Below are positions 20,656 to 35,220 of a DNA stretch of 64,000 nucleotides, piece after piece. This DNA comes from Bacteroidota bacterium (lineage in GTDB: Bacteria > Bacteroidota > Bacteroidia > 2-12-FULL-35-15): the NCBI GenBank assembly GCA_017303895.1, contig JAFLBF010000006.1, positions 78,618 through 142,617 on the forward strand, in the 5' to 3' direction. The translations under genes were made by a program, and so were the position numbers. The notes under the pieces were generated by a model that searched no databases, was not told the DNA's origin, and saw nothing but the letters and a program-made list of their open reading frames with translations. The number at the start of each line of letters is the position of its first letter. Position 1 is the stretch's first letter.

Positions 20656-21366
20656 TCATTTGTGGCAGCATTTGCTGCATTCCGGTTTGCTAGCCGACAT
20701 TTCCGGACTGATATAAGGGATGCCAAGGTTCATTCCTCTTAAGATAAGGAGTAAAGCCATAGCAACCACAAATACAGGAATGGCTTTATTGATCTTGTTT
20801 CTGAAGTTAATGCTGATCGAATTTCCAAGCATTCCCAATACGAACATTGCAGGTAAGGTGCCAAGGCCGAACATTGCCATAAACAATGCTCCCTCTAAAC
20901 TACTGCCTGTAGCAATTGCTCCTGTAATTCCTAAATAAACCAATCCGCATGGTAAGAGTCCATTCAATGTGCCGATAAAGAAAAGAGAAGAATAGCTTCT
21001 TTTTTGAAACAACACCCCTAATTTTTGTTTTAGCTTACCTATATACGAATAGATAAATGCAGTTATTTTAAATCGCCCATACGCGCTACTTGGTAATAAA
21101 ACCATGATCAAAATAATTACTCCCAAAGTAATGGATAATGCTTGCTGATAGCCAGCTATTACAACACTTTGTCCTAATAATCCAAATAAGCTTCCAAATA
21201 AGGCATAGGTGAACATTCTTCCGAAGTTATACAATAGAGCACCTGCTATTTTTGAAGTGATTGAATTATGATTTAATGGCAGGGCTAGTGCAATAGGTCC
21301 GCACATTCCTACACAGTGAAAACTTCCTAAAAATCCTAATGTTATGGCAGCCCAAATAAATGTCAT
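20656..21366 (-). CDS. DsbD_2 / TauE-SafE-like membrane protein associated with cbb3 oxidase biogenesis
   Basis: 236 aa polytopic membrane protein with an HCVGMCGP motif, immediately downstream of ccoH. Confidence 0.6.
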   Translation of the reverse strand: MTFIWAAITLGFLGSFHCVGMCGPIALALPLNHNSITSKIAGALLYNFGRMFTYALFGSLFGLLGQSVVIAGYQQALSITLGVIILIMVLLPSSAYGRFKITAFIYSYIGKLKQKLGVLFQKRSYSSLFFIGTLNGLLPCGLVYLGITGAIATGSSLEGALFMAMFGLGTLPAMFVLGMLGNSISINFRNKINKAIPVFVVAMALLLILRGMNLGIPYISPEMSASKPECSKCCHK

Positions 21367-21368
21367 GA

Positions 21369-21815
21369 TTACGGCAATACGATGATCGATTCGTTAAAAT
21401 AATTTTTCCCCTCAACTGTCCAAGAAATTTGCATCTTGTACATTCCACTGCTTAATACAGATTTTGAAATGGTCTGTTTCAGATCAGCATTTAGTTGAAC
21501 CGGTGTTTTATAATCTTTCGATGCGTCAGAAGGTTTGAAGAATAGGATCTCACCGGCAATTTTTTTGTTTTTAAAGTCAATAGGGAATTGGATTTCTAAT
21601 TGATTTGCACCAATGGTATGTTTGATCTGATCGGATAATGCATTAGCATTATTCATCTCATTGATCTTGTCCTGATATTTTAGCTCTTTAGCATAATAAT
21701 CACTGCTTACCAATTCAATTTTTTGATTCATGCTAAATGTTACCATTACAATTACCAGTCCTACAAAACTGATATAAAGTGCAGCGATCTTTGTTCCCCA
21801 GCTAATTTGTGTCAT
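21369..21815 (-). CDS. ccoH: FixH/CcoH cbb3 oxidase assembly protein
   Basis: 148 aa with a single N-terminal TM segment and the FixH-family layout. It sits between ccoG and the DsbD_2 gene. Confidence 0.75.
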   Translation of the reverse strand: MTQISWGTKIAALYISFVGLVIVMVTFSMNQKIELVSSDYYAKELKYQDKINEMNNANALSDQIKHTIGANQLEIQFPIDFKNKKIAGEILFFKPSDASKDYKTPVQLNADLKQTISKSVLSSGMYKMQISWTVEGKNYFNESIIVLP

Positions 21816-21830
21816 GATATTTTGTTTTTT

Positions 21831-23246
21831 TTATTTTGGATTAATTTTAAATGGCCCTAAAAAGCTAGCATCAATACTTTCCAGTTTTTTGCCATTTGCG
21901 TATACACCAATTGTAATTTCCGTTTTTCTTTCTTTTACATCTTTTTTATCTAACTCTACAAAAAAGATGGCACCTCCCAAGCTTTGATCTTCAATCTTAA
22001 TACTGTCATCGCCTACTAATCGAATACTGCCTTGGTGTGATTCAAGAACAAGATCGATGTTTAGTTTTTCATGTGTTTTATTTACCAATTTAACATTGTA
22101 TAAGTTAGTGATCTTATTGTTAGGTTGATCCTGAAACAACATGCCGGGTGTTCTTAAAATGGTGGTCTCCACATCCGTTCTGCTTACAAGTAATGTCACC
22201 AATATGCCCAGTAAAACTAATAATACAACTGAATAGGCCACCATTCTTCCTGTGATCGAAAGTTTTTGTTTTTCAGCAATGCCTTTTTCAGAATCGTATC
22301 TGATCAAACCTTTAGGTAAACCAACACTATCCATCATGTGGTCGCAAGCATCAATACAAGCAGTGCAATTAACACATTCTAATTGGGTGCCATTTCTGAT
22401 ATCAATTCCGGTTGGACAAACCTTAACACATTGTGCACAATCAATACAGTCGCCTTTCTCTCTGGTTTCATTTTTTTTGTATTTAGCTCTTGGTTCTCCT
22501 CGTACATAATCATATGCTACAACAATAGAGTTTTTATCTAAGAGTACCCCTTGTAATCGCCCGTATGGACAAACAACAATACATGCCTGTTCACGAAACC
22601 ATAAGTAAACAAAAAAGAAAACAGTAGTAAAGATCAAAAGTGAAATGAATGTTCCAATATTTTTTGCCAGTCCTTCATGATACATTTTGAACAACTCATC
22701 CACACTGATGATATAAGCTAAAAATGTATTTGCTATTATGAATGAAACTATGAAAAAGGTAAAGGTTTTTCCTCCTCTTCTCATTATCTTATCAGCATCC
22801 CACTTCTTCTTGTTTAATGCTTTTTGGTGACTGGCATCACCTTCAAACCAATATTCGATCTTCCTGAAAACCATTTCCATGAAAATGGTTTGAGGGCATG
22901 CCCAACCACAAAATACCCTTCCGAATACCACCGTAAATAAAACAACAAATACAATGAACGTTAACATTCCTAATACAAATAGGAACAGATCCTGTGGCCA
23001 AAAGATAGCACCAAAAAGAATGAATTTTCTTTCGGGAATATTGATCAGAAAAAGAGGCTCCCCATCGTACTCTATAAATGGTAGTGTAAAAAACACTACC
23101 AGATATAGAATGCTTAGAATTGTTCGTTTGTTATATAATGCACCTTTGGGCTTTTGTGCAAAGATCCAATTTCTCTTCCCGTCTTTTATTGTTGCAATGG
23201 AGTCTCTAAATGATTCTTCTTCCTGCAACTTACTATCAGATTCCAT
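21831..23246 (-). CDS. ccoG: CcoG/FixG 4Fe-4S ferredoxin-type cbb3 oxidase accessory protein
   Basis: 471 aa. CGWACPQT motif and two 4Fe-4S CxxCxxCxxxCP clusters (CIDCAQCVKVCP; CVNCTACIDACD), followed by a C-terminal Ig-like domain. Confidence 0.85.
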   Translation of the reverse strand: MESDSKLQEEESFRDSIATIKDGKRNWIFAQKPKGALYNKRTILSILYLVVFFTLPFIEYDGEPLFLINIPERKFILFGAIFWPQDLFLFVLGMLTFIVFVVLFTVVFGRVFCGWACPQTIFMEMVFRKIEYWFEGDASHQKALNKKKWDADKIMRRGGKTFTFFIVSFIIANTFLAYIISVDELFKMYHEGLAKNIGTFISLLIFTTVFFFVYLWFREQACIVVCPYGRLQGVLLDKNSIVVAYDYVRGEPRAKYKKNETREKGDCIDCAQCVKVCPTGIDIRNGTQLECVNCTACIDACDHMMDSVGLPKGLIRYDSEKGIAEKQKLSITGRMVAYSVVLLVLLGILVTLLVSRTDVETTILRTPGMLFQDQPNNKITNLYNVKLVNKTHEKLNIDLVLESHQGSIRLVGDDSIKIEDQSLGGAIFFVELDKKDVKERKTEITIGVYANGKKLESIDASFLGPFKINPK

Positions 23247-23249
23247 AAT

Positions 23250-24458
23250 TTATTTTTTTACTTCTACTTTCGCGCTATCTACTACTGCTGCAACTGCTGT
23301 ACTATCAGTTGCTGTAGAATCAGCAACTGGGGCAACACCTTCTTCTACATAGAGGTCACCTTGTTTTTCTTTTCCGTTTGGAGGGTTTGTGCCTCTTATA
23401 CTTTTAACATAGGATGCTAGCATTTGTATTTCTGCTGGCGAGTATTGTGCTTGCCAAGACTGCATCCCCTTATCCGGGTATCCGTATTTAATTGTTTTAA
23501 AGATGTCTTTTATGCTTCCTCCATGTAACCAATAATCATCCGTTAAGTTTGGTCCAATCTGATTTCCTTCACCTAAACTGCCATGACAAGGAGCACATGT
23601 TGATTTGAAAATGTTCTCTCCTTCAGCAATTTTAGCTTTGTCTTCCAACATTGTAACAGATGTTTCATCCACATTGTTAGCACTAAGTTTTGCATATTCT
23701 TCTTTTGCAATTTTTGCCGCTTCAATTGACTTGTTATATTCTGTTGCTTGAAGATCTCCGGTTGCTGTTACGTGATAATGAACTAAATAAATAAAAGCAA
23801 AGATGATGGTAACATAGAATCCATATTTCCACCATGGTGGTAGATCGTTATCCAATTCTTTAATGCCATCATAATTGTGATCCATTAGAATGTCCGCTTC
23901 TTTTTCAAGTGAAACGGAAGCGTTTAATTTTTCCAATAAACTTGGTTCTGCTGCTATCACTTTTGCAGCGATCATTTCTTCAATTTCAGGTTTTACCATT
24001 AGCTGGATGCTATTAACCAAAACAAAAATGATCAGAATCTCAAATGCGATCACCGCTAAAAGACTATAGAATAATCCGCTGCTCAGTCCCATGTATCCAC
24101 TAACTGCCACAGCTGAAGTAGCTTCTTGAGCCATTACAGACTTAGCAGAGGACATAAGTGCGATCAGTGCAACAATACTAAGGATCTTTTTTCCATTATT
24201 GTTTTTCTCTTTTGTTGCATATGCAACGTTTTTCAAAACTCCTGCTAATACAGAAATAACGATCATTAGCAAAACAATAATGCTGAATAGACCAATGAAT
24301 AAAGGATTAGAGAATGCAGCAAACGTATCCTCTTCAGCTTTAGTCGCTGCATTTTGTGCATACACACTTAGTCCAAAGAACATGGATAACATCGTTAGCA
24401 AATACTTGCTGCCTGGAGCAAGTTTTTTGAATAGATTATTGATGGTTGAATATTTCAT
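23250..24458 (-). CDS. ccoP: cbb3 oxidase subunit III (CcoP/FixP) with a single c-type haem site
   Basis: 402 aa. FixP_N signature (DHNYDGIKELDNDLPPWW), one CxxCH (CAPCHG), and N-terminal TM segments. Confidence 0.7.
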   Translation of the reverse strand: MKYSTINNLFKKLAPGSKYLLTMLSMFFGLSVYAQNAATKAEEDTFAAFSNPLFIGLFSIIVLLMIVISVLAGVLKNVAYATKEKNNNGKKILSIVALIALMSSAKSVMAQEATSAVAVSGYMGLSSGLFYSLLAVIAFEILIIFVLVNSIQLMVKPEIEEMIAAKVIAAEPSLLEKLNASVSLEKEADILMDHNYDGIKELDNDLPPWWKYGFYVTIIFAFIYLVHYHVTATGDLQATEYNKSIEAAKIAKEEYAKLSANNVDETSVTMLEDKAKIAEGENIFKSTCAPCHGSLGEGNQIGPNLTDDYWLHGGSIKDIFKTIKYGYPDKGMQSWQAQYSPAEIQMLASYVKSIRGTNPPNGKEKQGDLYVEEGVAPVADSTATDSTAVAAVVDSAKVEVKK

Positions 24459-24469
24459 AATGATAGAGA

Positions 24470-24652
24470 TTAAAAATTGTTTTTATCATTTTTATCATCG
24501 AATGGCAAATTCTCTAATTCAATGATATGTTGCTTATTTACTTTTGCTACATAGATCAACAGTCCAATAAAGAATGCGAAAAATATAGTTAGTGATATCA
24601 TTGGGAAGATGCTTACTCCCGCAATTGATTCTAAATAGTTTATAAATTTCAT
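24470..24652 (-). CDS. ccoQ: CcoQ/FixQ-like small membrane subunit
   Basis: 60 aa single-TM protein between ccoNO and ccoP. Confidence 0.55.
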   Translation of the reverse strand: MKFINYLESIAGVSIFPMISLTIFFAFFIGLLIYVAKVNKQHIIELENLPFDDKNDKNNF

Positions 24653-24660
24653 GTGCTTTC

Positions 24661-26790
24661 TTATTTAGTTGTTACTACTTCGCTTGCTTTGATGTCTTTT
24701 CCTAATCTTTGTAGGTATGCGATCAATGCAATGATCTCTCTATCATTTGGTGTTTCAATTTTGTCTTTTTTCAAGCTCTCCGTAATTTCATCTGCTTGTT
24801 TGATCAAGTCGATATTCGCAATTTTATCATACCCATCAGGATAAGGAACGCCTAATTTTTGCATTGCTCTTATCTTTGCAGGAGTGGATGCTGTATCTAA
24901 AGCATCTTCTAACAACCAAGGGTATTGAGGCATGATAGAGTGCTCTGACACTGATGTAGGTGAATACATATGGTTGTAATGCCATGTGTTAGATCTTAAT
25001 CCTCCTTCACGAGCTAAATCCGGACCGGTACGTTTTGATCCCCATTGGAATGGATGGTCGTAAACAAATTCGCCAGCCTTTGAATATTCCCCGTAACGTT
25101 CAGTTTCGAAACGTAATGGACGGATCATTTGTGAATGACAGGTGTAACATCCCTCTCTGATATATATATCACGACCTTGAAGTTCAAGTGGAGTGTACGG
25201 TTTTACACTTGAGATCGTTGGAATGTTTGATTTTACTAAGAATGTAGGGATCATTTCTGCAATACCACCGATCAAGATAACCACTAAACTTACGATAAGC
25301 ATTTGGATAGGCTTGCGTTCGATCCATCTGTGCCAGTGTTCGCCTGCATGTGAACCATCGTGTGCTTTATCCAATGCAGGTGCTTCTGCTTCTTCATTGG
25401 CTAAGAACGATCCCGCTTTAACAGTTTTGATAATGTTGTAAGCCATCATTACGAAACCAACTAGGTACATCGTTCCACCGAGTGAACGCATGATGTACAT
25501 TGGGCGTAATTGAGTTACTGTTTCAAGGAAGTTAGTGTATTGTAAGAATCCGTTTGGTTTGAATTCTTGCCACATTAGATATTGCGTAAATCCAGCCCAA
25601 TACATTGGAATAGCATAGAATAAGATACCCAATGACCCTAACCAGAAATGCCAGTTAGCTAATTTAGTTGACCATAAATTGGTGCGGAACATTTTAGGTA
25701 CTAACCAATATAAGATACCAAAAGTTAAGAACCCATTCCAACCCAAGGCTCCAACGTGAACGTGAGCAATGATCCAGTCTGTAAAGTGTGCAATTGAATT
25801 TACTTTTTTCAATGATAACATTGGCCCTTCAAATGTTGCCATACCATAGGCAGTAACTGCCACCACCATGAATTTTAGCACAACGCTTTCACGCACTTTA
25901 TCCCAAGCACCACGTAATGTTAATAATCCATTGATCATTCCTCCCCATGATGGGGCGATCAACATAACAGAGAATACAACACCAAGTGATTGAGCCCAAT
26001 CAGGAAGTGCAGTGTATAATAAGTGGTGAGGACCAGCCCAAATATATAAGAAGATCAAAGCCCAAAAGTGGATGATCGATAAGCGATAAGAGTACACCGG
26101 ACGTTCAGCAGCTTTAGGAATAAAGTAATACATTAAACCTAAATACGGTGTAGTTAAGAAGAATGCTACTGCATTGTGTCCATACCACCATTGTACTAAG
26201 GCATCTTGTACACCTGCATACCAAGAATAACTTTTTAAGAAAGATACAGGCATCTCAAAAGAGTTCACAATGTGTAATACGGCAACAGTTACAAATGTGG
26301 CGATATAGAACCATATACCTACATATAAGTGGCGCTCTCTTCTTTTGATGATCGTTCCGAACATATTCCAACCGAACACCACCCAAATTAATGCAATCGC
26401 GATGTCAATTGGCCACTCTAATTCTGCATATTCTTTACCAGTTGTAATACCGAAAGGAATGGTTAGTGCAGCAGCAACAATGATCATCTGCCATCCCCAG
26501 AAATGGACCTTGCTTAAGGCATCACTGAACATACGCGCTTTACATAAACGTTGTAAAGAGTAATACACTCCCATAAAGATACCATTCCCCACAAAAGCGA
26601 AAATAACTGCATTTGTGTGCAGTGGTCTTAATCTACCAAATGTGGTGTACGACATCACATTCAGTTCCGGGAAAATAAATTGCAAGGCTACCCATAAGCC
26701 TACCAGCATACCCACAAACCCCCATAATATGGTGGCATAGGCAAATTGCTTTACAATTTTGTTGTCATAGGAAAATTTTTCTACTTCCAT
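24661..26790 (-). CDS. ccoNO: cbb3-type cytochrome c oxidase subunits I and II, fused (CcoN-CcoO)
   Basis: 709 aa. A haem-copper oxidase subunit I core with 12 TM segments and His ligands (…WAGPHHL…HFWLGS…HVHVG…). The C-terminal monohaem CcoO domain carries CYTCHS and RTGPDL. Confidence 0.92.
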   Translation of the reverse strand: MEVEKFSYDNKIVKQFAYATILWGFVGMLVGLWVALQFIFPELNVMSYTTFGRLRPLHTNAVIFAFVGNGIFMGVYYSLQRLCKARMFSDALSKVHFWGWQMIIVAAALTIPFGITTGKEYAELEWPIDIAIALIWVVFGWNMFGTIIKRRERHLYVGIWFYIATFVTVAVLHIVNSFEMPVSFLKSYSWYAGVQDALVQWWYGHNAVAFFLTTPYLGLMYYFIPKAAERPVYSYRLSIIHFWALIFLYIWAGPHHLLYTALPDWAQSLGVVFSVMLIAPSWGGMINGLLTLRGAWDKVRESVVLKFMVVAVTAYGMATFEGPMLSLKKVNSIAHFTDWIIAHVHVGALGWNGFLTFGILYWLVPKMFRTNLWSTKLANWHFWLGSLGILFYAIPMYWAGFTQYLMWQEFKPNGFLQYTNFLETVTQLRPMYIMRSLGGTMYLVGFVMMAYNIIKTVKAGSFLANEEAEAPALDKAHDGSHAGEHWHRWIERKPIQMLIVSLVVILIGGIAEMIPTFLVKSNIPTISSVKPYTPLELQGRDIYIREGCYTCHSQMIRPLRFETERYGEYSKAGEFVYDHPFQWGSKRTGPDLAREGGLRSNTWHYNHMYSPTSVSEHSIMPQYPWLLEDALDTASTPAKIRAMQKLGVPYPDGYDKIANIDLIKQADEITESLKKDKIETPNDREIIALIAYLQRLGKDIKASEVVTTK

Positions 26791-26794
26791 AATT

Positions 26795-27001
26795 TTAATT
26801 GTTATTGGTTAATTTTTCTTTTGTTGATATTGTTTTGTTTGATTCTTTTGAAGAAGGAGTAATTGTATCGTCAAAAAGCATACGTAGAGAAGGGGTGTAG
26901 TCATCGTCATATTGTCCATTCTTAACACTCCAGATGAACGCTAATAAAAAGCCAGCCGCCACCACAATGCTTACTGCTATTAAAATGATCAAAACGCTCA
27001 T
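26795..27001 (-). CDS. ccoS: CcoS/FixS cbb3 oxidase maturation protein
   Basis: 68 aa, single TM (LIILIAVSIVVAAGFLLAFIW) and then GQYDD. It lies 4 nt upstream of ccoNO. Confidence 0.7.
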   Translation of the reverse strand: MSVLIILIAVSIVVAAGFLLAFIWSVKNGQYDDDYTPSLRMLFDDTITPSSKESNKTISTKEKLTNNN

Positions 27002-27093
27002 GTGAAAATGCTTTTATTTATGCGTCAAAATTATTTTTTCGCGAATAGAGGAATTATGATAGCGGTCAGAAAAAAACATGATTAAAATCACAT

Positions 27094-27165
27094 TGCTATA
27101 AATAGCACAAAATCAATGATTTGCAATTGTTTTTCGTAAAGATTGCTAAAAATGATTTTTATCAT
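27094..27165. promoter_or_regulatory. Two palindromes in the ccoS upstream and divergent intergenic region: TGCTATAAATAGCA (27094-27107) and the Fnr/FixK-box-like ATGATTTTTATCAT (27152-27165, 5-4-5 spacing)
   Basis: Seen directly in the sequence. The second matches TTGAT-N4-ATCAA at 4 of 5 positions per half-site. Confidence 0.3.
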
Positions 27166-27239
27166 GGAAGTGGCTTGATAATGCTCATTTTAAATGAAAG
27201 TGAACGAGTCTACTTTTGCCCAAGATAAAACATAGTTAT

Positions 27240-28059: not shown

Positions 28060-29561
28060 ATCAATTTATGCGCGATACTACTTTGTATACATTAGAACAA
28101 ATTAATTTTTCAGAGTTTGAATCGGCATTTGGTCAAGTGCCCTACAAAGATGGAATGGTGTTTACTGCTGATAAAAAAGTGAAGATGGATGTTAAACAGG
28201 ATGAATGGACAGGTAAATCCTATTATGATCTATATTTTGCAGAGAAAGATAAAGATGGACATTGGTTAAGTCCTCAGTTATTAAAAGGTGAAATAAATGG
28301 TCGTTATCACGAGGGACCTGCTACTTTTAACAAAACAGGTGATGTAGCTTATTTTACACGTAGTAACTATTTCAAATATAATTTGCGAAAGAGTTCGAAA
28401 GATGAAAATAATTTAAAATTATTTAAAGCAAAGCTGGTTGATGGGAAATGGAAAGAATTAGAAGAGTTGCCATTTAATAGTGATGAGTATTCGGTGGGTC
28501 ATCCTAGTTTGTCGGTGGATGAAAAAACACTTTATTTTATTTCTGATATGCCCGGTGGACTTGGTGGGACTGATATTTACCGTTCTACTTTTGATGGAGT
28601 TGTTTGGTCAAAGCCAGAGAATTTAGGGAGCGTGATCAATACGCCTGGAAATGAAATGTTCCCTCACATGAGCGATGATGGAACCCTGTATTTTTCATCG
28701 GATGCGCATAACAATATGGGAGGAATGGATGTCTTTGCGAGTTCATATGATTTGAAAAATAAAAAATGGTTGCAGGTGGAAAATTTAAATTACCCCTTGA
28801 ATTCTACAAAAGATGATTTTGCATTTGTGCTGAATGCTGATAACAAAACAGGTTTTGTATCCTCTAATAGGAGCCAAAAAGACAAAGTATTCGAAATTCA
28901 AAAACATGATCCTACCTTTTGGTTGACGGGAACAGTAACTATTAAAGGCAAAAATTTACCATTCGAAGATGTGACAATTACATTAATTGATGAAACCAAT
29001 GATTCAAAGAATGCTAAAGTCTCTGTTCAAACGGATAAAAATGGTAAATATAGAATTAAGCTAAAGCCTAATTCTGATTATATTGTATATGGTTCTAAAG
29101 AAAATTATTTTACACAGAGTGTTGATTTGTCAACGAAAGGGAAAAAGTTTTCTGAAGACTATACAGTGAATTTTCAATTGGATGAGATCATTATCGAAAA
29201 GCCTATTGTGCTCGAAAATATTTATTACGATCTAGATAAATCAGAAATTCGTCCTGATGCCGCTGTTGAATTGGATAAATTGGTGAAATTATTAAACGAT
29301 AATCCCAAAGTAAATATTGAAATGGGGTCACATACAGATGCTCGTGCAGGCGACCACTATAATTTAGTTCTATCCGATAAACGTGCTAAGTCTACCGTTG
29401 ATTATTTGGTTTTCAAAGGAATTGATGTTAAGCGCTTAAAGTACAAGGGTTATGGTGAAACAAAATTAATTAATCGTTGTAAAAACGATGTTGAATGTAC
29501 AGAAGAGGAACATCAGCAAAATAGAAGAACAGAGTTTAAAGTTACAAAGGTGATCAAATAA
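28056..29561 (+). CDS. OmpA-family protein with TolB-like PD40 beta-propeller repeats and a C-terminal OmpA peptidoglycan-binding domain
   Basis: PD40-like repeats (…GHPSLSVDEKTLYFISDMPGGLGGTDIY…MFPHMSDDGTLYFSSD…). The OmpA_C domain carries NRRTEF and VLSDKRAKSTVDYL. Confidence 0.8.
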   Translation: MNQFMRDTTLYTLEQINFSEFESAFGQVPYKDGMVFTADKKVKMDVKQDEWTGKSYYDLYFAEKDKDGHWLSPQLLKGEINGRYHEGPATFNKTGDVAYFTRSNYFKYNLRKSSKDENNLKLFKAKLVDGKWKELEELPFNSDEYSVGHPSLSVDEKTLYFISDMPGGLGGTDIYRSTFDGVVWSKPENLGSVINTPGNEMFPHMSDDGTLYFSSDAHNNMGGMDVFASSYDLKNKKWLQVENLNYPLNSTKDDFAFVLNADNKTGFVSSNRSQKDKVFEIQKHDPTFWLTGTVTIKGKNLPFEDVTITLIDETNDSKNAKVSVQTDKNGKYRIKLKPNSDYIVYGSKENYFTQSVDLSTKGKKFSEDYTVNFQLDEIIIEKPIVLENIYYDLDKSEIRPDAAVELDKLVKLLNDNPKVNIEMGSHTDARAGDHYNLVLSDKRAKSTVDYLVFKGIDVKRLKYKGYGETKLINRCKNDVECTEEEHQQNRRTEFKVTKVIK

Positions 29562-29612: not shown

Positions 29613-30311
29613 ATGGAAAATCTTAAAGATCGAATCTTACATCTGTTTTTGCCACTTCTATTCTTATCAAGTTGTGCACCCATCTACACACCAAATGTTG
29701 TTCATGCGCCATTGTTCTCTGAGAAGCATGATGCTGATTTACAATTCAGTATGGGAACCGCTGGATACGATGTGCAGGCAGCCTATGCACCCACTAATTA
29801 TTTGGGTGTAATGGTTAATTCATCCTACCAGTTTAAAGATGTAGCTGACACCAATAGTTTTCATAAGCACAATTTTGTGGAGGCCGGGATTGGTTACTAT
29901 GGAAAAATAGAAGAAGCGGGGAGATATGAATGTTTTGTGGGCTTTGGAAGTGGAGAGGCTAAAAGTTATAGTCGTGATTTTTGGGGTTATGTGACAGGAA
30001 ACTATAATCGTTTTTATATTCAGCCTTCTATTGGCGCTAAGATGGATGTGTTTGAAGGGGCTTTTTCTTGTAGAGTTGCTTATGTTGACATGTATCAATT
30101 CTCCGGAACAACTGATTATCGGAGATCGGAAATGAATACCTTTTATTTTGAACCGGTGCTAACAGCAAAAGCGGGATACAAATTTGTTAAATTTTTTGTC
30201 CAAGGCGGCTTGTCACTTCCAATCGAAAGTAATTTAAAATATACCGATCAGCCTTTTATTTTGAATTTCGGGTTAAACTTTAGTTTCTCAAAATCATATT
30301 TAAAAGAATAG
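29613..30311 (+). CDS. Putative lipoprotein or outer-membrane protein, starting at MENLKDRIL
   Basis: Lipobox-like LFLSSC, then a ~210-aa beta-rich sequence ending in aromatic residues. Confidence 0.5.
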   Translation: MENLKDRILHLFLPLLFLSSCAPIYTPNVVHAPLFSEKHDADLQFSMGTAGYDVQAAYAPTNYLGVMVNSSYQFKDVADTNSFHKHNFVEAGIGYYGKIEEAGRYECFVGFGSGEAKSYSRDFWGYVTGNYNRFYIQPSIGAKMDVFEGAFSCRVAYVDMYQFSGTTDYRRSEMNTFYFEPVLTAKAGYKFVKFFVQGGLSLPIESNLKYTDQPFILNFGLNFSFSKSYLKE

Positions 30312-30492
30312 TTAGGTCTCTCCTAACAATTGCCTGTAGGTACATATATTTTGAGCGTTTTTTTTCTGCCTTCTTTGTCTTTTTCTCTTGTTCTGATAAT
30401 CAGTTTGTTATGTCTTTTTGTATGACGAAAATCATTTTTTAGTAAAAATGGTGATTCTAATTTTACTAGAATTTTTCATAAAGACAATAACA

Positions 30493-31737
30493 ATGAGTAA
30501 ATTAGTCCCTAAACATACTATAAAGAAGACTAAATCTGTAAAGATGGATAGTAAAGAGGGGCTTCATGCATTATTTGCCTACGCTACAGAAGGCATTTTA
30601 ATAACCAATAGCAAGGGAGAGATCACAAAGATCAATCCGAGTGCAGAGCGTTTGTTTGGTTATGATGAAGGAGAGTTGGTAGGTAAAAAAATTGAATTGC
30701 TGGTCCCGCAAAAATACAGGGGAAATCATACTGATCACAGGGCAAAATATAATACGAATCCTCATCCCCGTTCAATGGGAAAAGGCATGACACTCTTTGG
30801 GGTGCGTAAAGATGGAAAAGAATTTCCGGTTGAGATCTCTTTAAGTAACTATACTACCAATGACGAGTTGTATGTGATCGCTTTTATCATTGATATTACA
30901 GAGCGCAAACAGGCGGAAGAAAAACTCAAATCATACTCTACAGAGTTAGAAAAGAGAGTGGAAGATAGAACATTGATGTTACGTGAAGCTATTGCTGAAC
31001 TCGAGAAGACAAAAGAAGAAATTCATGCGGCATTGGAAAAGGAAAAGGAACTGAATGATCTAAAGTCCCGGTTTGTTTCGATGGCATCTCACGAATTTAG
31101 AACTCCTTTGAGCACTATTTTGTCTTCGGTCTCACTAATTTCTAAATATAATTCACCGGATACTGAAGATAAAAAGCAAAAACATATTTCACGTGTGAAG
31201 TCATCTGTTAGCCATTTGACCGACCTGTTGAACGACTTTTTATCTCTGGGGAAATTGGAAGAGGGCGTAATAAAGGCTGCTCCTCAGCTTTTTAATATTG
31301 TTGAATTTTCAAAAGACGTTATTGTTGAATTGCAAGTAGTTGCTAAAGAAGGACAACAGATCAAATATGAACATACAGGAAGTATTCAGGAAGTTTATTT
31401 AGACAATAAACTCCTAAGAAATATTTATATAAACCTGTTATCCAATGCTATAAAATTTTCTCCAGAAAATGGACTGATCCTAATAAATACGGAGGTTGAT
31501 GAAAGGTTTATGCGCATAGAGGTAATTGATAGTGGAATCGGTATTTCAAAAGAAGATCAGGTGCATTTATTTGAACGTTTTTTTAGAGCTCAAAATGCTA
31601 CTAATATTCAAGGAACCGGTTTAGGATTAAACATTGTTGCAAAATATGTGGAGTTGATGGGTGGCGAGATCACTTTCACAAGCGAGCTAAATAAAGGAAC
31701 TACATTTTCTATAAAATTTCCTCTTGAGTTAAATTAA
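30493..31737 (+). CDS. PAS-domain sensor histidine kinase (cytoplasmic, FixL-like layout). The start is chosen at MSKLVP; the ORF track starts at 30418.
   Basis: PAS domain with an RKDGKEFPVEISLS beta-strand and a His-rich F-helix region (YRGNHTDHRAKY). H-box MASHEFRTPLSTI; HATPase N, G1 (DSGIGI) and G2 (GTGLGLNIV). No TM segments. Confidence 0.8.
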   Translation: MSKLVPKHTIKKTKSVKMDSKEGLHALFAYATEGILITNSKGEITKINPSAERLFGYDEGELVGKKIELLVPQKYRGNHTDHRAKYNTNPHPRSMGKGMTLFGVRKDGKEFPVEISLSNYTTNDELYVIAFIIDITERKQAEEKLKSYSTELEKRVEDRTLMLREAIAELEKTKEEIHAALEKEKELNDLKSRFVSMASHEFRTPLSTILSSVSLISKYNSPDTEDKKQKHISRVKSSVSHLTDLLNDFLSLGKLEEGVIKAAPQLFNIVEFSKDVIVELQVVAKEGQQIKYEHTGSIQEVYLDNKLLRNIYINLLSNAIKFSPENGLILINTEVDERFMRIEVIDSGIGISKEDQVHLFERFFRAQNATNIQGTGLGLNIVAKYVELMGGEITFTSELNKGTTFSIKFPLELN

Positions 31738-31753
31738 TTTAAAAATAAAGAAC

Positions 31754-32812
31754 ATGAAAACAATTTTACTGATCGAAGATAATGACGAAATGCGTGAGAA
31801 TACGACTGAGATTTTAGAGTTGGATAATTATAAGGTTCTTGCTGCTCCTAATGGAAAAATAGGGGTGGAATTAGCACAAAAAAACAAAGTGGATCTGATC
31901 ATTTGTGATGTAATGATGCCGGTTTTGGATGGTTATGGTGTTCTTCATTTACTTAGTAAGAATCCGGAAACAGCAAGTATTCCCTTTATATTTTTAACGG
32001 CAAAGGCCGAGAGAAATGATTTTAGAAAAGGAATGGAAATGGGGGCTGATGATTATATCACTAAGCCATTTGATGACATTGAACTATTGAATGCTGTTCA
32101 AGGACGTTTGAAAAAAACAGAAATGTTGAAAATGGAATTTGCTAAGAATATAGAAGGACTTGATGAGTTTTTTAGTGAAATAAAAAATTTGGAAGACTTG
32201 GCAAAATTATCGAACGAACGCAAAACAAAAACATACAAGAAGAAAGAAACGATCTTTTCAGAAGATAGCTATCCGAATGGAATTTATTTCATCAACAAAG
32301 GGAAAGTCAAAACATTCAAGACCAATGCAGATGGTAAAGAATTTATTACTGGTTTGCATAAAGAAGGCGATTTTATTGGGTATCTAGCTCTCCTAGAGGA
32401 TAGTAAGTATAATGAATCAGCAGCTGCCTTGGAAGATGCAGAGATCTGTTTGATCTCCAAAGACGATTTTTTCACATTGATCTATAAGAATAGCGAAGTT
32501 TCAAAAAAATTCATCAGAATGCTTTCTGATAATCTTGCCGAAAAAGAAGAAGCATTGCTAAAATTAGCTTATAATTCAGTTCGTAAGCGCGTGGCAGAAG
32601 CATTGGTTACTTTGAAAAGCCGTTATCAAAAAGATGATTCAAAAAATTTCTCCATGTCTATTTCCCGTGAGGATCTGGCTAATATGGCCGGTACATCTCC
32701 GGAAACAGCAATTCGTACCTTAAGTGATTTTAAAGAAGAGAAACTGATCGAGATCCATGGCGGAAATATCACTTTACTAAACGCTGAGAAATTGGCAAAA
32801 ATGAAGAATTAA
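31754..32812 (+). CDS. Response-regulator receiver fused to a cNMP-binding Crp/Fnr-type domain and HTH (REC–Crp fusion)
   Basis: 352 aa. REC domain: LLIEDND, phospho-acceptor Asp in LIICDVMMP, and LTAK. A beta-roll cNMP-binding domain follows (ETIFSEDSYPNGIYFINKGKVK…GDFIGYLALLED), then a C-terminal Crp-type HTH (REDLANMAGTSPETAIRTL). Confidence 0.8.
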   Translation: MKTILLIEDNDEMRENTTEILELDNYKVLAAPNGKIGVELAQKNKVDLIICDVMMPVLDGYGVLHLLSKNPETASIPFIFLTAKAERNDFRKGMEMGADDYITKPFDDIELLNAVQGRLKKTEMLKMEFAKNIEGLDEFFSEIKNLEDLAKLSNERKTKTYKKKETIFSEDSYPNGIYFINKGKVKTFKTNADGKEFITGLHKEGDFIGYLALLEDSKYNESAAALEDAEICLISKDDFFTLIYKNSEVSKKFIRMLSDNLAEKEEALLKLAYNSVRKRVAEALVTLKSRYQKDDSKNFSMSISREDLANMAGTSPETAIRTLSDFKEEKLIEIHGGNITLLNAEKLAKMKN

Positions 32813-35220
32813 AGTCCTTTTCTTTTTGCAATTAAATTGCTTACTCCGGTTGTGAACAAAACAATCGTAATTGAGCTTAAAGGCATTAGGATGGCAGCCA
32901 TTACCGGAGATAAGGTGCCTTGTACCGCTAATCCTAGTCCAATTGAATTATAGATTAGTGATACTCCAAAGCTAGCAATAATGATCTTTTTCCCGGCTTT
33001 AGCAAATTGAATAAATGTTGTCAGATCATTGAATTTTGAACCGTCAATTATTGCATCACAAGCAGGAGAAAAATTATTTACATCATCTGATACTGCAATA
33101 CCAACATCACTCTGTTTTAGAGCTCCTGCATCATTTAATCCATCACCGATCATGATCACTTTGTGTTCATTTTCTTGCAGTTGTTTGATGTAATTTAATT
33201 TGTCAGCCGGACTTTGATTAAAATTCAGGTCGCTGTTCAATGGAAATAATTTTTCTAAAACCTTTTTCTCGGCATCATTATCACCTGATAGTAATGCCAG
33301 GCTGTAGTCACTTTCCAATGATCCAATGAGAGGAACTAATCCCTCACGATATTGATTTTTGATAGTGAATTTGCCATACACTTCTCCTTCGATCTCTAGA
33401 AAAACAGAACTTGCAGCATTGTTTACGGTCGATGATGTGCTGCTTTGTGTAATAAAACTCTCAGAACCTAATCTAACCTTATACCCATCAACAATAGCTT
33501 CGATCCCTTTTCCGGTGATCTCTCTATAATCTTTAGGTTCAATTATTTTAGAAAGTGGAAGGGATTCCAAAATACGCTTACTCAGAGGATGTGTAGATTG
33601 GATCACTAATGAGCGGATCAATTGCTGTTCAACTTCAGTTAAACGTTTCCCGGAGTATTCAACAAGAGCTTCTTTGTTTTGAGTGATGGTTCCTGTTTTA
33701 TCGAAAACAATAGTATCGGATTCCGCTATTTTTTCAATGATATCAGCATTCTTTAAATAGAATTTGTTTCGTCCTAATATTCTTAAAATGTTTCCATTCG
33801 TAAATGTGGATGATAATAGTAGTGCACACTGACAAGCAACGATCAAAACAGATGTAAATGCATTTAGTGCTCTGGAAAAATCCGATGGTAACCAATATAA
33901 AAAGCCTCCTGTTGCTAATATGAAAATTCCGTATGTAATATACTTTCCGGCTCTGTTTACAAATGTGTCGGTGTTTTCCTGCTCATTGGTAAATGCATCA
34001 TTGTTCCATAGTTGTGTCAAATAACTTTGTGAGGTTTCTTTGATCACCTCTAATTCAATAGCGCTTCCCACCTGTTTTCCTCCTGCATAAATGATCTCAC
34101 CTAATGTCTTTTGAACGGGAACAGATTCTCCGGTTACAAAGCTGTAATCAATACTCGCATTGCCTTTAAACAGAATTGCATCAGCAGGGATCAATTCTCC
34201 ATTTTTAATGATGATCCGGTCACCCACCTTGATGTTTGTAACAGGCATGGTGCTTTCTGCATCATTTTTTAAAACAGTAACTGCAATCGGGAAATAGGAT
34301 TTGTAATCTCTTTCAAAGGAAAGTGTATTATAGGTCTTATTTTGAAATAACCTTCCAAGTAGCATGAAGAATACGATGCCACTCATAGAATCAAAATATC
34401 CGGCACCGGTTCCACTTATGATCTCATATACACTTCTGCTGAATGTAACGAGAATCGCTAATGCAATAGGAGCATCAATATTCAGATATTTCTGTTGAAG
34501 ACTTTTCCAGGCGGAGACAAAAAAGTCAGATGCACTGTAAAAGAATACCGGCAGTGCTAAAAACAAATTTAGATAGCTGAATAAGGTTTTTAAGCTTTCT
34601 TCCTGAATGCTGCTGACTGCAAAATAGTCGGGCAAGCTTAACATCATGATGTTGCCAAAACAAAAGCCTGCTACTCCGATTTTAAATAGTTGTTTCCGGT
34701 TGTATTTGCTTGTTTTTGGTTTTTCAACATCATTTAAACTGATGTGTGGCTCATATCCTATAAAGGCTAATAATTCTACTGCTTTTCGTAAAGTGATCTC
34801 TTTTTCTTTGTAATAGATGCTAACTTCCTTCTTTAAAAAATTAACTTGTGATTTGATCACAGCAGGATTGATGCGATGTAGATTTTCTAATAGCCAAACA
34901 CAGGATGCACAATGTACTTGAGGAAGATAAAATGTAACATGTGTTTGTTCACCGTTGGTAAACGTGATCAGTTTTTGTTTGATCTTTTGATCATCTAAAT
35001 ACGTGTACTTTTCGGAATTAAATTTTCCTTTTGCAGTAATGCCCGGATTTTTCGATATGTCGTAATACTGGCAGAGATTATTTTCATTAATGATCTCGTA
35101 CACCAATTTACATCCATCACAACAGAATACTTTCTCTTCTATATGAAGATCGTGGGAAGTACAATCATTACCACAATGATAACATTTGGTTTCAGTTGTG
35201 TTATGTAATGATGTTTGCAT
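32809..35220 (-). CDS. ccoI: Copper-translocating P-type ATPase of the CcoI/FixI type
   Basis: 803 aa. N-terminal CYHCGNDC and CCDGC metal-binding motifs, TM CPC-type region (ACQCAL), DKTGT phosphorylation motif and GDGLND hinge. Confidence 0.85.
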   Translation of the reverse strand: MQTSLHNTTETKCYHCGNDCTSHDLHIEEKVFCCDGCKLVYEIINENNLCQYYDISKNPGITAKGKFNSEKYTYLDDQKIKQKLITFTNGEQTHVTFYLPQVHCASCVWLLENLHRINPAVIKSQVNFLKKEVSIYYKEKEITLRKAVELLAFIGYEPHISLNDVEKPKTSKYNRKQLFKIGVAGFCFGNIMMLSLPDYFAVSSIQEESLKTLFSYLNLFLALPVFFYSASDFFVSAWKSLQQKYLNIDAPIALAILVTFSRSVYEIISGTGAGYFDSMSGIVFFMLLGRLFQNKTYNTLSFERDYKSYFPIAVTVLKNDAESTMPVTNIKVGDRIIIKNGELIPADAILFKGNASIDYSFVTGESVPVQKTLGEIIYAGGKQVGSAIELEVIKETSQSYLTQLWNNDAFTNEQENTDTFVNRAGKYITYGIFILATGGFLYWLPSDFSRALNAFTSVLIVACQCALLLSSTFTNGNILRILGRNKFYLKNADIIEKIAESDTIVFDKTGTITQNKEALVEYSGKRLTEVEQQLIRSLVIQSTHPLSKRILESLPLSKIIEPKDYREITGKGIEAIVDGYKVRLGSESFITQSSTSSTVNNAASSVFLEIEGEVYGKFTIKNQYREGLVPLIGSLESDYSLALLSGDNDAEKKVLEKLFPLNSDLNFNQSPADKLNYIKQLQENEHKVIMIGDGLNDAGALKQSDVGIAVSDDVNNFSPACDAIIDGSKFNDLTTFIQFAKAGKKIIIASFGVSLIYNSIGLGLAVQGTLSPVMAAILMPLSSITIVLFTTGVSNLIAKRKGL

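What the first reader, a model, noticed from the sequence alone, without database searches (positions are those of the whole stretch)
20656..35220. cbb3 oxidase cluster split in two: ccoS–ccoNO–ccoQ–ccoP–ccoG–ccoH–DsbD_2 separated from the Cu-ATPase ccoI by a 5.8-kb opposite-strand block
Usually ccoI lies immediately adjacent to ccoS (ccoGHIS or ccoI–ccoS–ccoN). Here a plus-strand block between 27216 and 32812 intervenes. It encodes a small secreted protein, a split OmpA-family gene, a lipoprotein, a PAS histidine kinase and a REC–Crp regulator. No integrase, transposase or flanking repeats are visible, so this may be a native regulatory insertion rather than a mobile element. The DsbD_2/TauE-like protein with HCVGMCGP downstream of ccoH is a conserved but functionally uncharacterised member of such clusters.
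Basis: partly seen in the sequence, partly recalled or inferred. Interest (0 to 1): 0.55.

Follow-up and report, generated by a model that had tools for sequence, protein, structure and literature searches.

The report
cbb3 oxidase cluster with embedded oxygen regulator
The gap in this Bacteroidota cbb3 oxidase cluster holds the cluster's own conserved FixL-like sensor kinase and receiver-Fnr regulator plus the wreck of an unrelated adhesin operon, so the split is ordinary rearrangement, although the regulator pair is a good uncharacterised candidate for the phylum's low-oxygen switch.

Summary
ccoS-ccoNO-ccoQ-ccoP-ccoG-ccoH-DsbD_2 (20656-27001, minus) and ccoI (32809-35220, minus) are separated by a 5.8-kb plus-strand block. 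In 60 of 72 related loci ccoI sits directly before ccoS.

The block has two unrelated parts.

1. 30419-32812 is a soluble PAS histidine kinase plus a REC-cNMP-HTH_Crp response regulator.
- The PAS domain aligns without gaps to the FixL heme domain, and the proximal His is invariant.
- The pair is a conserved neighbour of cco genes across Bacteroidota. It usually lies upstream of ccoI; in the nearest relatives it lies between ccoI and ccoS.
- Tandem TGAT-N4-ATCA boxes exactly 22 bp apart, at class-II-like distance from the -7 element, precede ccoS, the 73-aa ORF-ccoI unit, the hemerythrin-Usp unit and the kinase gene.

2. 27170-30420 is a decayed type IX secretion adhesin operon inserted into the ccoS/kinase promoter region.
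- The "split OmpA gene" is really a deletion joint at about 28046. It fuses the first 157 codons of a choice-of-anchor-L adhesin gene to a PorE-like OmpA gene that lacks its first ~146 codons.
- The relative L001 keeps the intact adhesin, PorP/SprF and OmpA genes.

There are no mobile-element genes, flanking repeats or compositional anomaly. The split itself is ordinary. The regulator pair and its box regulon are inferred, not shown.

The parts
20656..21366 (-). DsbD_2-family membrane protein with the HCVGMCGP motif; last gene of the cco operon
   Evidence: Pfam PF13386, E 4e-50. Follows ccoH in all 52 loci where both are seen.
21369..21815 (-). ccoH (FixH)
   Evidence: Pfam PF05751, E 2e-17.
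21831..23246 (-). ccoG (FixG-type 4Fe-4S protein)
   Evidence: Pfam Fer4_18 and FixG_C.
23250..24458 (-). ccoP. It has a single CxxCH motif and a ~185-aa N-terminal extension.
   Evidence: Pfam FixP_N and one Cytochrome_CBB3 domain; sequence.
24470..24652 (-). 60-aa membrane ORF in the ccoQ position
   Evidence: No Pfam hit. Conserved at this position in 57 loci at 42-93% identity.
24661..26790 (-). Fused ccoN-ccoO
   Evidence: Pfam COX1, E 2e-120, and FixO, E 1e-98, in one 709-aa protein.
26795..27001 (-). ccoS (FixS); first gene of the operon
   Evidence: Pfam PF03597, E 3e-21.
27053..27094 (.). Tandem Fnr-like boxes (TGAT-N4-ATCA cores) 22 bp apart in the ccoS promoter; the proximal box centre lies about 29.5 bp before the TAATTTTG -7 element
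   Evidence: PWM scores 11.0 and 16.4. Columns conserved in L006, L007 and L082. Same geometry across loci.
27149..27191 (.). Second tandem box pair (23 bp apart), now facing the small ORF at 27240; it sits at the left edge of the insertion
   Evidence: PWM scores 16.3 and 12.3. The first box aligns with a box in L007.
27240..27563 (+). Small secreted protein (107 aa) that travels with choice-of-anchor-L adhesin genes
   Evidence: Homologous ORFs precede adhesin N-termini in unrelated contexts L089 (tblastn E 6e-9) and L090. No Pfam or NCBIfam hit.
27586..28059 (+). 5' fragment (157 codons) of a giant choice-of-anchor-L adhesin gene; pseudogene remnant
   Evidence: NCBIfam NF038133 matched only over model positions 1-117 of 219. 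The homologue in L090 is longer than 2,500 aa.
28044..28048 (.). Deletion joint. The adhesin frame ends in ...SQY and then reads four out-of-frame codons to a stop; homology to the L001 OmpA gene starts at 28046.
   Evidence: blastn breakpoint; sequences. The joint is present in an identical Logan contig, L081.
28056..29561 (+). 5'-truncated PorE/CHU_0125-family OmpA gene lacking its signal/lipobox and TPR region
   Evidence: NCBIfam NF053607 matched at model positions 147-638 of 639. The intact 650-aa homologue is in L001. dN/dS 0.055 and dS 2.6 against L001.
29613..30311 (+). Lipoprotein of unknown family (232 aa); part of the inserted segment
   Evidence: Present in L001 (93% identity). Absent from L006, L007 and L082. 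No Pfam or NCBIfam hit.
30419..30438 (.). Fnr-like box about 75 bp upstream of the kinase start; candidate autoregulation site
   Evidence: PWM score 15.0. TATGAYGAAAATCAT is conserved in L001, L006, L007 and L082.
30493..31737 (+). Soluble FixL-like PAS histidine kinase
   Evidence: Pfam PAS, HisKA and HATPase_c. Ungapped alignment to the B. japonicum FixL heme domain, E 1e-18. H104 (= FixL H200) is invariant in 41 sequences.
31754..32812 (+). Response regulator: REC domain fused to an Fnr/FixK-type cNMP-like domain and HTH_Crp
   Evidence: Pfam. D52 >=90% conserved; T82 and K104 invariant; E317-x-x-I320-R321 invariant. Alignment to CRP and FNR. At least 8,000 clusters share the architecture.
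32809..35220 (-). ccoI (FixI-type Cu P1B-ATPase); its 3' end overlaps the regulator gene's 3' end by 4 bp
   Evidence: Pfam E1-E2_ATPase, Hydrolase, ATPase-cat_bd.
35318..35539 (-). 73-aa membrane ORF upstream of ccoI
   Evidence: Conserved in the nearest relatives. All 8 homologues have a box pair upstream.
35593..35634 (.). Tandem boxes 22 bp apart upstream of the 73-aa ORF and ccoI
   Evidence: PWM scores 16.7 and 11.0.
35633..37381 (-). Hemerythrin (36839-37381), tandem-Usp protein (36015-36839) and a conserved 124-aa protein of unknown function (35633-36007)
   Evidence: Pfam. Homologues cluster with the kinase-regulator pair in about 30 loci.
37413..37454 (.). Tandem boxes 22 bp apart upstream of the hemerythrin gene
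   Evidence: PWM scores 14.1 and 16.9. 7 of 7 hemerythrin homologues have a site upstream.

Best explanation
This is a normal Bacteroidota cbb3 oxidase locus: the ccoS-ccoNO-ccoQ-ccoP-ccoG-ccoH-DsbD_2 operon plus ccoI. Its dedicated two-component regulator lies between ccoS and ccoI, and a decayed, unrelated operon lies beside that regulator.

Shown:
1. The kinase-regulator pair is a conserved neighbour of cco genes. In this clade it sits divergent from ccoS and convergent with ccoI.
2. In the lineage of the window and L001, a type IX secretion cargo operon entered the ccoS/kinase intergenic region. That operon comprises a small secreted protein, a choice-of-anchor-L adhesin with a type-B C-terminal domain, PorP/SprF, a PorE-like OmpA and a lipoprotein.
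3. In the window, an internal deletion of at least 5 kb then removed most of the adhesin gene, PorP/SprF and the first ~146 codons of the OmpA gene. This left an out-of-frame joint at about 28046.

Inferred:
- The kinase binds heme in its FixL-like PAS domain and is active when O2 is low.
- It phosphorylates the REC domain of the regulator.
- The regulator's Fnr/FixK-like module then binds tandem TGAT-N4-ATCA boxes, centred at about -41.5 and -63.5, and activates the cco operon, the 73-aa ORF-ccoI unit, the hemerythrin-Usp unit and its own operon.
- In effect, the rhizobial FixL-FixJ-FixK cascade is compressed into one phosphotransfer step.
For: Synteny:
- 80 loci were recovered with ccoI as query and mapped by tblastn.
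- The kinase-regulator pair lies within 10 kb upstream of ccoI in 33 of 60 loci with enough sequence, and downstream in 7.
- L006 and L007 have only the pair between ccoI and ccoS.
- L082 has ccoS divergent from the pair with no ccoI nearby.
- L083 has the pair next to hemN.
- L003 has the pair next to a caa3 oxidase operon.

Insertion and deletion:
- Homology to L007 is interrupted only at 27170-30420.
- L001 carries an intact 650-aa OmpA, PorP/SprF and an adhesin of more than 1,109 aa.
- Both window fragments match truncated parts of their family models.
- Homologues of the 107-aa ORF accompany adhesin genes elsewhere.
- The joint is present in a 100% identical Logan contig.

Kinase:
- The best PAS matches in the PDB are all heme-PAS domains: FixL at 1e-18 to 8e-20, and EcDOS/DosP.
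- The proximal His is invariant. Basic residues align with the FixL residues R206 (-> K110) and H214 (-> R118, invariant) that I recall as the heme-propionate contacts.

Regulator:
- The phospho-acceptor residues D52, T82 and K104 are conserved.
- The recognition helix is Fnr-like, E-x-x-x-R without CRP's preceding Arg.
- The cAMP-phosphate Arg of CRP is replaced.

Boxes:
- 59 of 63 ccoS upstream regions have a box with at most one mismatch, against 14 in shuffles. 27 have a perfect core, against 0.8.
- The spacing is exactly 22 bp in 31 of 34 loci, and the distance to the TAnnTTTG element is fixed.
- Sites not used to train the matrix occur upstream of ccoI (39/79), hemerythrin (7/7), the 73-aa ORF (8/8) and Usp (16/34). 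None occurs upstream of about 375 operon-internal gene starts.
- The window holds 4 tandem pairs, against 0 in 300 shuffles.

Background: in Flavobacterium psychrophilum the cbb3 operon and hemN are strongly induced by O2 limitation, and no regulator is named (PMC9723704).
Against: - No experiment links the regulator to the boxes or the kinase to O2.
- The FixL distal Arg220 is not conserved (Met124 here, variable elsewhere). An invariant Met120 sits in the FG loop instead, so ligand chemistry may differ from FixL.
- Bacteroidota encode many stand-alone Crp/Fnr proteins that could bind TGA-N6-TCA boxes.
- 39 of 80 loci show no kinase-regulator pair within reach, although many of those contigs are short.
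- Only 7 of 41 kinase genes have a strong box upstream.
- I could not see the part of the L001 contig that should hold the adhesin N-terminus, the small ORF and ccoS. The L001-like ancestral arrangement is therefore inferred.
- dS between the window's OmpA fragment and the L001 gene is saturated (2.6). They are divergent alleles, not simple orthologues.
- The identical Logan contig probably comes from the same sample as the source assembly, so it is not fully independent.
Confidence: 0.7

Rival explanations
1. The kinase-regulator pair is only a bystander of the cco genes. The TGAT-N4-ATCA boxes are bound by a stand-alone Crp/Fnr protein encoded elsewhere, and the two-component system senses something other than O2 (redox state, NO, CO, or a non-heme PAS ligand).
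For: - The FixL distal Arg is not conserved.
- Only 17% of kinase genes have a strong box upstream.
- The pair is not seen in 39 of 80 loci.
- TGA-N6-TCA is a generic Crp/Fnr-family target (established knowledge).
Against: - The linkage persists through several independent rearrangements: upstream of ccoI, between ccoI and ccoS, next to ccoS without ccoI, next to hemN, and next to a caa3 operon.
- No stand-alone Crp/Fnr gene is consistently linked; only one weak extra hit, in L029.
- The recognition-helix residues are invariant.
- A conserved box lies upstream of the pair in this clade.
- The best PAS relatives are all heme sensors.
Confidence: 0.22
2. The 5.8-kb block is a horizontally acquired island or mobile-element remnant that split the cluster.
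For: - The 3.25-kb part (27170-30420) is lineage-specific, being absent from L006, L007 and L082.
- Synonymous divergence from L001 rises steeply towards it.
- A second type IX cargo gene nearby is also an indel.
Against: - No integrase, transposase or recombinase domains.
- No flanking direct or inverted repeats beyond the regulatory boxes.
- GC is 0.349 against 0.364 for the window, and tetranucleotide distance is at the 50th-87th percentile.
- The kinase-regulator half is ancestral at this position.
Confidence: 0.05
3. 27586-28059 and 28056-29561 are one OmpA-family gene split by a frameshift or a sequencing/assembly error.
For: The two ORFs overlap by 4 bp in different frames, as a frameshifted gene would.
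Against: - The upstream ORF is the first half of a choice-of-anchor-L domain, not an OmpA/PorE N-terminus.
- The downstream ORF starts at model position 147 of 639. The intact L001 protein has a lipoprotein signal and TPR region there instead.
- An identical joint is present in a separate Logan assembly.
Confidence: 0.03

Closest known systems
Rhizobial FixL-FixJ-FixK cascade controlling fixNOQP/fixGHIS
   Same: - A PAS kinase homologous to the FixL heme domain, with the proximal His conserved.
- A phospho-accepting REC domain.
- An Fnr/FixK-type DNA-binding module.
- Palindromic TGAT-N4-ATCA boxes in front of cbb3 oxidase and assembly genes, at class-II-like position.
   Different: - REC and the FixK-like module are one polypeptide. 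There is no LuxR-type FixJ and no separate fixK gene, so there is one regulatory step instead of two.
- The FixL distal Arg220 is missing.
- The boxes occur as pairs exactly 22 bp apart.
- The organisms are Bacteroidota, not Alphaproteobacteria.
- Nothing has been tested experimentally.
E. coli FNR and class II FNR-dependent promoters
   Same: - A cNMP-like beta-roll plus HTH_Crp.
- The E-x-x-x-R recognition helix.
- The core of the target resembles TTGAT-N4-ATCAA.
- The proximal site is centred about 41.5 bp upstream of the inferred transcription start.
   Different: - No N-terminal Cys cluster for a [4Fe-4S] centre; a receiver domain occupies the N-terminus instead, so O2 would be sensed by a partner kinase.
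- The residue before the recognition-helix Arg is Ile, not Ser.
Canonical Bacteroidota cco locus (ccoI-ccoS-ccoNO-ccoQ-ccoP-ccoG-ccoH-DsbD_2), for example F. psychrophilum fp1153/fp1154
   Same: Same genes, same order and same fused ccoNO. The DsbD_2 gene comes last and hemN lies nearby.
   Different: ccoI is convergent with the regulator pair and lies 5.8 kb from ccoS, instead of about 100 bp upstream of it.
Type IX secretion type-B cargo operons (adhesin, PorP/SprF and PorE-like OmpA, as at sprB/sprF in Flavobacterium johnsoniae; from my own knowledge)
   Same: L001 has the full set in this order. The window keeps the 5' end of the adhesin gene and the 3' three-quarters of the OmpA gene.
   Different: In the window the operon is broken: there is no type-B C-terminal domain, no PorP/SprF and no export signal on the OmpA fragment.

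Membership tests
cbb3 oxidase structural and assembly cluster (ccoNOQP + ccoGHIS) | CcoN heme-copper subunit and CcoO monoheme subunit | tested here: met
   COX1, E 2e-120, and FixO, E 1e-98, fused in one 709-aa protein.
cbb3 oxidase structural and assembly cluster (ccoNOQP + ccoGHIS) | CcoP c-type cytochrome subunit | tested here: met
   FixP_N plus one Cytochrome_CBB3 domain. There is only one CxxCH motif, so it is monoheme rather than the usual diheme form.
cbb3 oxidase structural and assembly cluster (ccoNOQP + ccoGHIS) | CcoQ small subunit | tested here: inconclusive
   A 60-aa single-TM ORF lies in the right position and is conserved in 57 loci. It has no Pfam match at E <= 0.001.
cbb3 oxidase structural and assembly cluster (ccoNOQP + ccoGHIS) | CcoG, CcoH, CcoI and CcoS assembly genes | tested here: met
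   Fer4_18 + FixG_C, FixH, P1B-ATPase with ATPase-cat_bd, and FixS.
FixL-type heme-PAS oxygen sensor kinase | PAS domain homologous to the FixL heme domain, followed by HisKA and HATPase_c | tested here: met
   Ungapped 116-residue alignment to 1dp6, E 1e-18. The top PAS hits are all heme-PAS domains. Domain content from Pfam.
FixL-type heme-PAS oxygen sensor kinase | Proximal heme-ligating His (B. japonicum FixL H200) | tested here: met
   H104 aligns with H200 and is invariant in 41 sequences.
FixL-type heme-PAS oxygen sensor kinase | Distal Arg (R220) that contacts bound O2 | tested here: not met
   The aligned residue is Met124 and the column is not conserved. An invariant Met120 lies four residues earlier.
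FixL-type heme-PAS oxygen sensor kinase | Heme binding and O2-inhibited autophosphorylation | not testable with these tools
   Needs purified protein.
FixL-type heme-PAS oxygen sensor kinase | Cognate FixJ (REC + LuxR-type HTH) partner | tested here: not met
   The adjacent regulator is REC-cNMP_binding-HTH_Crp.
Crp/Fnr family, Fnr/FixK branch | cNMP-like beta-roll plus C-terminal HTH_Crp | tested here: met
   PF00027, E 8e-22, and PF13545, E 2e-18. NCBIfam Fnr and FixK models are matched below their cut-offs.
Crp/Fnr family, Fnr/FixK branch | Recognition helix E-x-x-S-R | tested here: inconclusive
   The window has E317-T-A-I320-R321. The Glu and Arg are invariant, but Ile replaces Ser.
Crp/Fnr family, Fnr/FixK branch | N-terminal Cys cluster binding [4Fe-4S] (FNR proper) | tested here: not met
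   The N-terminus is a receiver domain.
Crp/Fnr family, Fnr/FixK branch | Binds TTGAT-N4-ATCAA-like boxes at target promoters | not testable with these tools
   Boxes of this type are present, conserved and correctly placed. Binding by this protein is inferred only.
Mobile element or genomic island | Integrase, transposase or recombinase gene | tested here: not met
   None among the six ORFs.
Mobile element or genomic island | Flanking direct or inverted repeats, or a tRNA target | tested here: not met
   Only chance-level short repeats and the regulatory boxes. A tRNA search was not run.
Mobile element or genomic island | Deviant base composition | tested here: not met
Type IX secretion type-B cargo operon | Cargo gene with a type-B C-terminal sorting domain, followed by PorP/SprF | tested here: not met
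   Both are absent from the window. They are present in L001 (TIGR04131 and TIGR03519). The window keeps only the first 157 codons of the cargo gene.
Type IX secretion type-B cargo operon | Full-length PorE/CHU_0125-family OmpA lipoprotein | tested here: not met
   The window ORF covers model positions 147-638 of 639 and scores 405 bits against a cut-off of 620. Even the intact L001 protein scores below the cut-off (479 bits), so it is a relative of the family rather than an equivalog.

The most novel reading that the evidence does not exclude
The PAS kinase plus REC-Fnr regulator is the hitherto unnamed microoxia switch of aerobic Bacteroidota. It would be a one-step version of FixL-FixJ-FixK in which a heme-PAS kinase directly phosphorylates an Fnr-type activator. 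That activator would bind as two dimers on boxes 22 bp apart and switch on cbb3 oxidase, ccoI, hemerythrin and Usp genes. The invariant Met in the FG loop (in place of the FixL distal Arg) would give the sensor a His/Met-type heme chemistry closer to EcDOS than to FixL.
Probability: 0.45. Interest if true: 0.6.

Novelty: new variant of a known kind. Interest (0 to 1): 0.38.

Why it matters
The split of the cluster itself carries no functional message. It records an operon insertion and a later deletion in a variable, recombining region.

The useful by-product is a concrete, testable candidate for how Bacteroidota switch on their high-affinity oxidase.
- The phylum is abundant in soils, waters, wastewater and fish pathogens.
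- cbb3 induction by O2 limitation has been observed there (PMC9723704).
- I could find no named regulator in the literature.

The candidate consists of a widespread kinase-regulator pair (at least 8,000 protein clusters), a defined binding motif, a fixed promoter geometry and a small predicted regulon.

It would also be an example of a receiver domain replacing the iron-sulfur sensor of an Fnr-type activator.

Tried and rejected
- **Reaching the rest of the L001 contig, which should hold the adhesin N-terminus, the small ORF and ccoS.** Exact-sequence look-ups with ccoS, the ccoQ-like ORF and the 107-aa ORF returned only short contigs identical to the window.
- **Homology search with the 157-aa fragment.** It gave only 14 hits, mostly cut at contig ends. 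Two were still useful for context.
- **Literature searches for a described REC-Crp regulator or a FixL-like kinase in Bacteroidota, and for the DsbD_2 gene.** Nothing relevant was found. Galperin's 2006 response-regulator classification is not held, so I could not check whether the architecture is listed there.
- **Count of the exact TGATNNNNATCA core in the window.** It is only weakly enriched (8 against 3.35 expected). The signal lies in position, pairing and cross-locus conservation, not in raw count.
- **dN/dS as a test for pseudogene decay of the OmpA fragment.** I expected an elevated value. It is low (0.055) with saturated dS. This shows the deletion is recent relative to a deep allelic divergence, and says little about decay.
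- **hemN as a regulon member.** Rejected on present evidence: 1 of 30 homologues has a site upstream.
- **Structure prediction.** Not run, because the sequence alignment to solved FixL domains was already ungapped and significant.

Full report
**1. Observation**

Minus strand:
- DsbD_2: 20656-21366
- FixH: 21369-21815
- FixG-type ferredoxin: 21831-23246
- FixP: 23250-24458
- A 60-aa ORF in the ccoQ position: 24470-24652
- Fused COX1+FixO: 24661-26790
- FixS: 26795-27001
- A FixI-type P1B-ATPase: 32809-35220

Six plus-strand ORFs lie between 27216 and 32812. GC content is flat across the region. Tetranucleotide composition of the block falls at the 50th to 87th percentile of same-size windows. 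There are no flanking repeats beyond short chance matches and the regulatory boxes described below, and no recombinase domains.

**2. How unusual is the split?**

A scan of one genome per GTDB species with ccoI as query returned 80 Bacteroidota loci, all from metagenome-assembled genomes. I mapped the window's proteins onto them by tblastn. Of 72 loci with enough downstream sequence:
- 60 have ccoI followed by ccoS within 800 bp, typically about 100 bp.
- 2 (L006, L007) have only the kinase and regulator genes between ccoI and ccoS.
- 2 have other gaps.
- 8 show no ccoS within 3-10 kb.

**3. The kinase-regulator half is native**

- The PAS kinase and the REC-cNMP-HTH_Crp regulator occur as an adjacent pair within 10 kb upstream of ccoI in 33 of 60 loci, and downstream of ccoI in 7.
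- The downstream cases are the window's nearest relatives: L001, L002, L003, L006, L007 and L048, with ccoI identity of 64-98%.
- Further relatives found through the regulator show the pair in three more contexts. It lies divergent from ccoS with no ccoI nearby (L082). It lies next to hemN and a PTPS gene (L083). It lies divergent from a caa3-type oxidase operon (L003).
- The pair has thus stayed with respiratory or low-oxygen genes through several independent rearrangements.
- The regulator family is very large: at least 8,000 clusters at E <= 1e-30, all with the same three domains. It carries only generic names.

**4. The other half is a broken adhesin operon**

- DNA comparison with L007 shows homology on both sides, interrupted only at window 27170-30420. 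Alignments of the intergenic regions confirm this.
- Comparison with L001 (ccoI 98% identical) shows colinearity from 38195 back to 28046 and no further.
- At that point L001 has an intact 650-aa PorE/CHU_0125-like OmpA lipoprotein. It is preceded by a PorP/SprF gene and by an adhesin of more than 1,109 aa with a type-B sorting domain.
- In the window, ORF 28056-29561 matches only model positions 147-638 of 639 of that OmpA family.
- ORF 27586-28059 matches only positions 1-117 of 219 of the choice-of-anchor-L domain.
- Read directly, the adhesin frame runs to ...EEWVDSQY. It then reads four codons of out-of-frame OmpA sequence to a stop. The OmpA frame resumes at ...CNSVNQFMRDTT, exactly as in L001.
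- This is a deletion joint between two different genes, not a split gene.
- A homologous adhesin in L090 exceeds 2,500 aa, so the loss was at least 5 kb and probably more.
- The 107-aa ORF (27240-27563) has homologues immediately upstream of adhesin N-termini in unrelated contexts, in L089 (next to methylmalonyl-CoA mutase) and in L090. It therefore belongs to the adhesin operon.
- The lipoprotein ORF (29613-30311) is shared with L001 only.
- A 3,155-bp Logan contig from SRR13786856 is 100% identical across the joint. This argues against a single-assembler artefact, although it is probably the same sample.

**5. Divergence pattern**

Pairwise dS against L001 rises towards the remnant:

| Gene | dS |
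|---|---|
| 73-aa and 124-aa ORFs | 0.23-0.28 |
| ccoI, Usp, hemerythrin | 0.42-0.53 |
| Regulator | 0.63 |
| Kinase | 0.76 |
| Lipoprotein | 0.86 |
| OmpA fragment | 2.6 (dN/dS 0.055) |

The OmpA fragment is therefore a deeply divergent allele that was under purifying selection for most of its history. The deletion is recent, and the adhesin region looks like a recombining, variable locus. A second type IX cargo gene is also an indel relative to L001: the S8 peptidase at 38445-42182.

**6. What the kinase looks like**

- The conserved start is ATG 30493 (MSKLV...). The protein has no membrane segment.
- Its PAS domain aligns without gaps over 116 residues to the Bradyrhizobium FixL heme domain (E 1e-18). 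All the best PAS matches in the PDB are heme sensors: FixL, EcDOS and DosP.
- FixL H200 corresponds to H104, which is invariant in 41 sequences.
- R206 corresponds to K110, and H214 to the invariant R118.
- The hydrophobic pocket positions are conservatively replaced.
- The distal R220 corresponds to a non-conserved Met124, and Met120 is invariant.
- I infer a heme-PAS sensor with a distal pocket different from FixL. Heme binding is not shown.

**7. What the regulator looks like**

- The REC domain has D52, T82 and K104 conserved.
- The C-terminal half aligns with CRP and FNR. CRP's cAMP-phosphate Arg82 is replaced by Glu.
- The recognition helix reads P-E-T-A-I-R, with E317, I320 and R321 invariant. 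This is the FNR pattern (V-E-T-I-S-R) rather than the CRP pattern (R-E-T-V-G-R).
- The receiver domain sits where FNR carries its Cys cluster.

**8. The boxes**

- An unbiased count of palindromes in 63 ccoS upstream regions put ATGAT-N4-ATCAT first.
- With at most one mismatch to TGAT-N4-ATCA, 59 of 63 regions have a box (shuffles: 14). 27 have a perfect core (shuffles: 0.8).
- Two boxes are exactly 22 bp apart in 31 of 34 loci.
- The box centre lies 29.5 bp (or 29.5 + 22 bp) before a TAnnTTTG -7 element in 33 of 37 loci. This places the sites near -41.5 and -63.5 of the inferred transcription start, the classical class II geometry. That last step rests on my own knowledge of Bacteroidota promoters.
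- A matrix built from these sites finds, in the window, four tandem pairs: 27053/27075, 27149/27172, 35593/35615 and 37413/37435. It also finds a single site at 30419.
- All are intergenic and all lie between 27.0 and 37.5 kb. No pair appeared in 300 shuffles.
- Across loci, sites not used for training precede ccoI (39/79), the 73-aa ORF (8/8), hemerythrin (7/7), Usp (16/34) and the kinase (7/41). None precedes about 375 operon-internal gene starts. The background rate is 0.24 sites per kb.
- The box before the kinase gene is conserved in the window's clade, which suggests autoregulation.

**9. Mechanism proposed**

- Shown: the gene content, the insertion and the deletion, the conserved linkage, and the box architecture.
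- Inferred: low O2 activates the heme-PAS kinase. The kinase phosphorylates the regulator. The regulator binds the box pairs and activates the cco operon, ccoI, the hemerythrin-Usp unit and its own operon.
- Published transcriptomics show strong O2-limitation induction of the cbb3 operon and hemN in Flavobacterium psychrophilum, without naming a regulator (PMC9723704).
- Eight literature searches found no description of this pair. Subscription literature is largely outside the library, so prior description cannot be excluded.

**10. Verdict**

It is partly wrong: that half is not an insertion, the other half is a decayed adhesin operon, and there is no split OmpA gene.

The split is an ordinary product of insertion and deletion in a variable region. 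The lasting value is the candidate microoxia regulon. It is a new variant of the FixLJ-FixK and FNR themes and is directly testable.

Noticed in passing
window 38195-42164 (ORF 38445-42182, +): A 1,245-aa S8 peptidase with SBBP repeats and a type IX secretion C-terminal domain is absent from the close relative L001. It is also a tetranucleotide outlier (97.5th percentile). This is a second secreted-cargo indel close to the cco locus.
   Followed up: partly
window 28056-37381 compared with L001: Synonymous divergence from L001 climbs steadily from 0.23 near the 73-aa and 124-aa ORFs (35318-36007) to 2.6 in the OmpA fragment. This suggests recombination with divergent alleles around the adhesin operon.
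   Followed up: partly
window 35633-36007 (-): A 124-aa protein with no Pfam match is conserved next to Usp genes and the kinase-regulator pair in about 30 loci. It is a possible further member of the low-oxygen regulon.
   Followed up: no
window 23250-24458 (-): The ccoP homologue has only one CxxCH motif, so it is monoheme rather than diheme. It also has a ~185-aa N-terminal extension with a signal-like start and extra hydrophobic segments.
   Followed up: no
L003 15180-21842: In this relative the kinase-regulator pair is divergent from a caa3-type cytochrome oxidase operon (COX2-cytochrome c, COX1, CyoE, two COX3, COX4, SCO1) instead of the cbb3 operon.
   Followed up: partly
window 2687-2706: A high-scoring single box (14.7) lies just upstream of a FAD_binding_3 monooxygenase-like gene (1302-2645, minus). 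It is far from the cco locus.
   Followed up: no
L082 11061-16346: In this relative (regulator 89% identical) ccoI is not next to the cluster at all. The pair is followed by proC-like and 2-oxoglutarate dehydrogenase genes.
   Followed up: no
window 18785-20612 (-): A HemN-like radical SAM gene and a PTPS (QueD-like) gene follow the DsbD_2 gene, as in many related loci. Only 1 of 30 hemN homologues has a box upstream.
   Followed up: partly
window 43428-45189 (-): A LytTR response regulator and a His_kinase (LytS-type) gene form a second two-component pair, next to type IX cargo genes.
   Followed up: no
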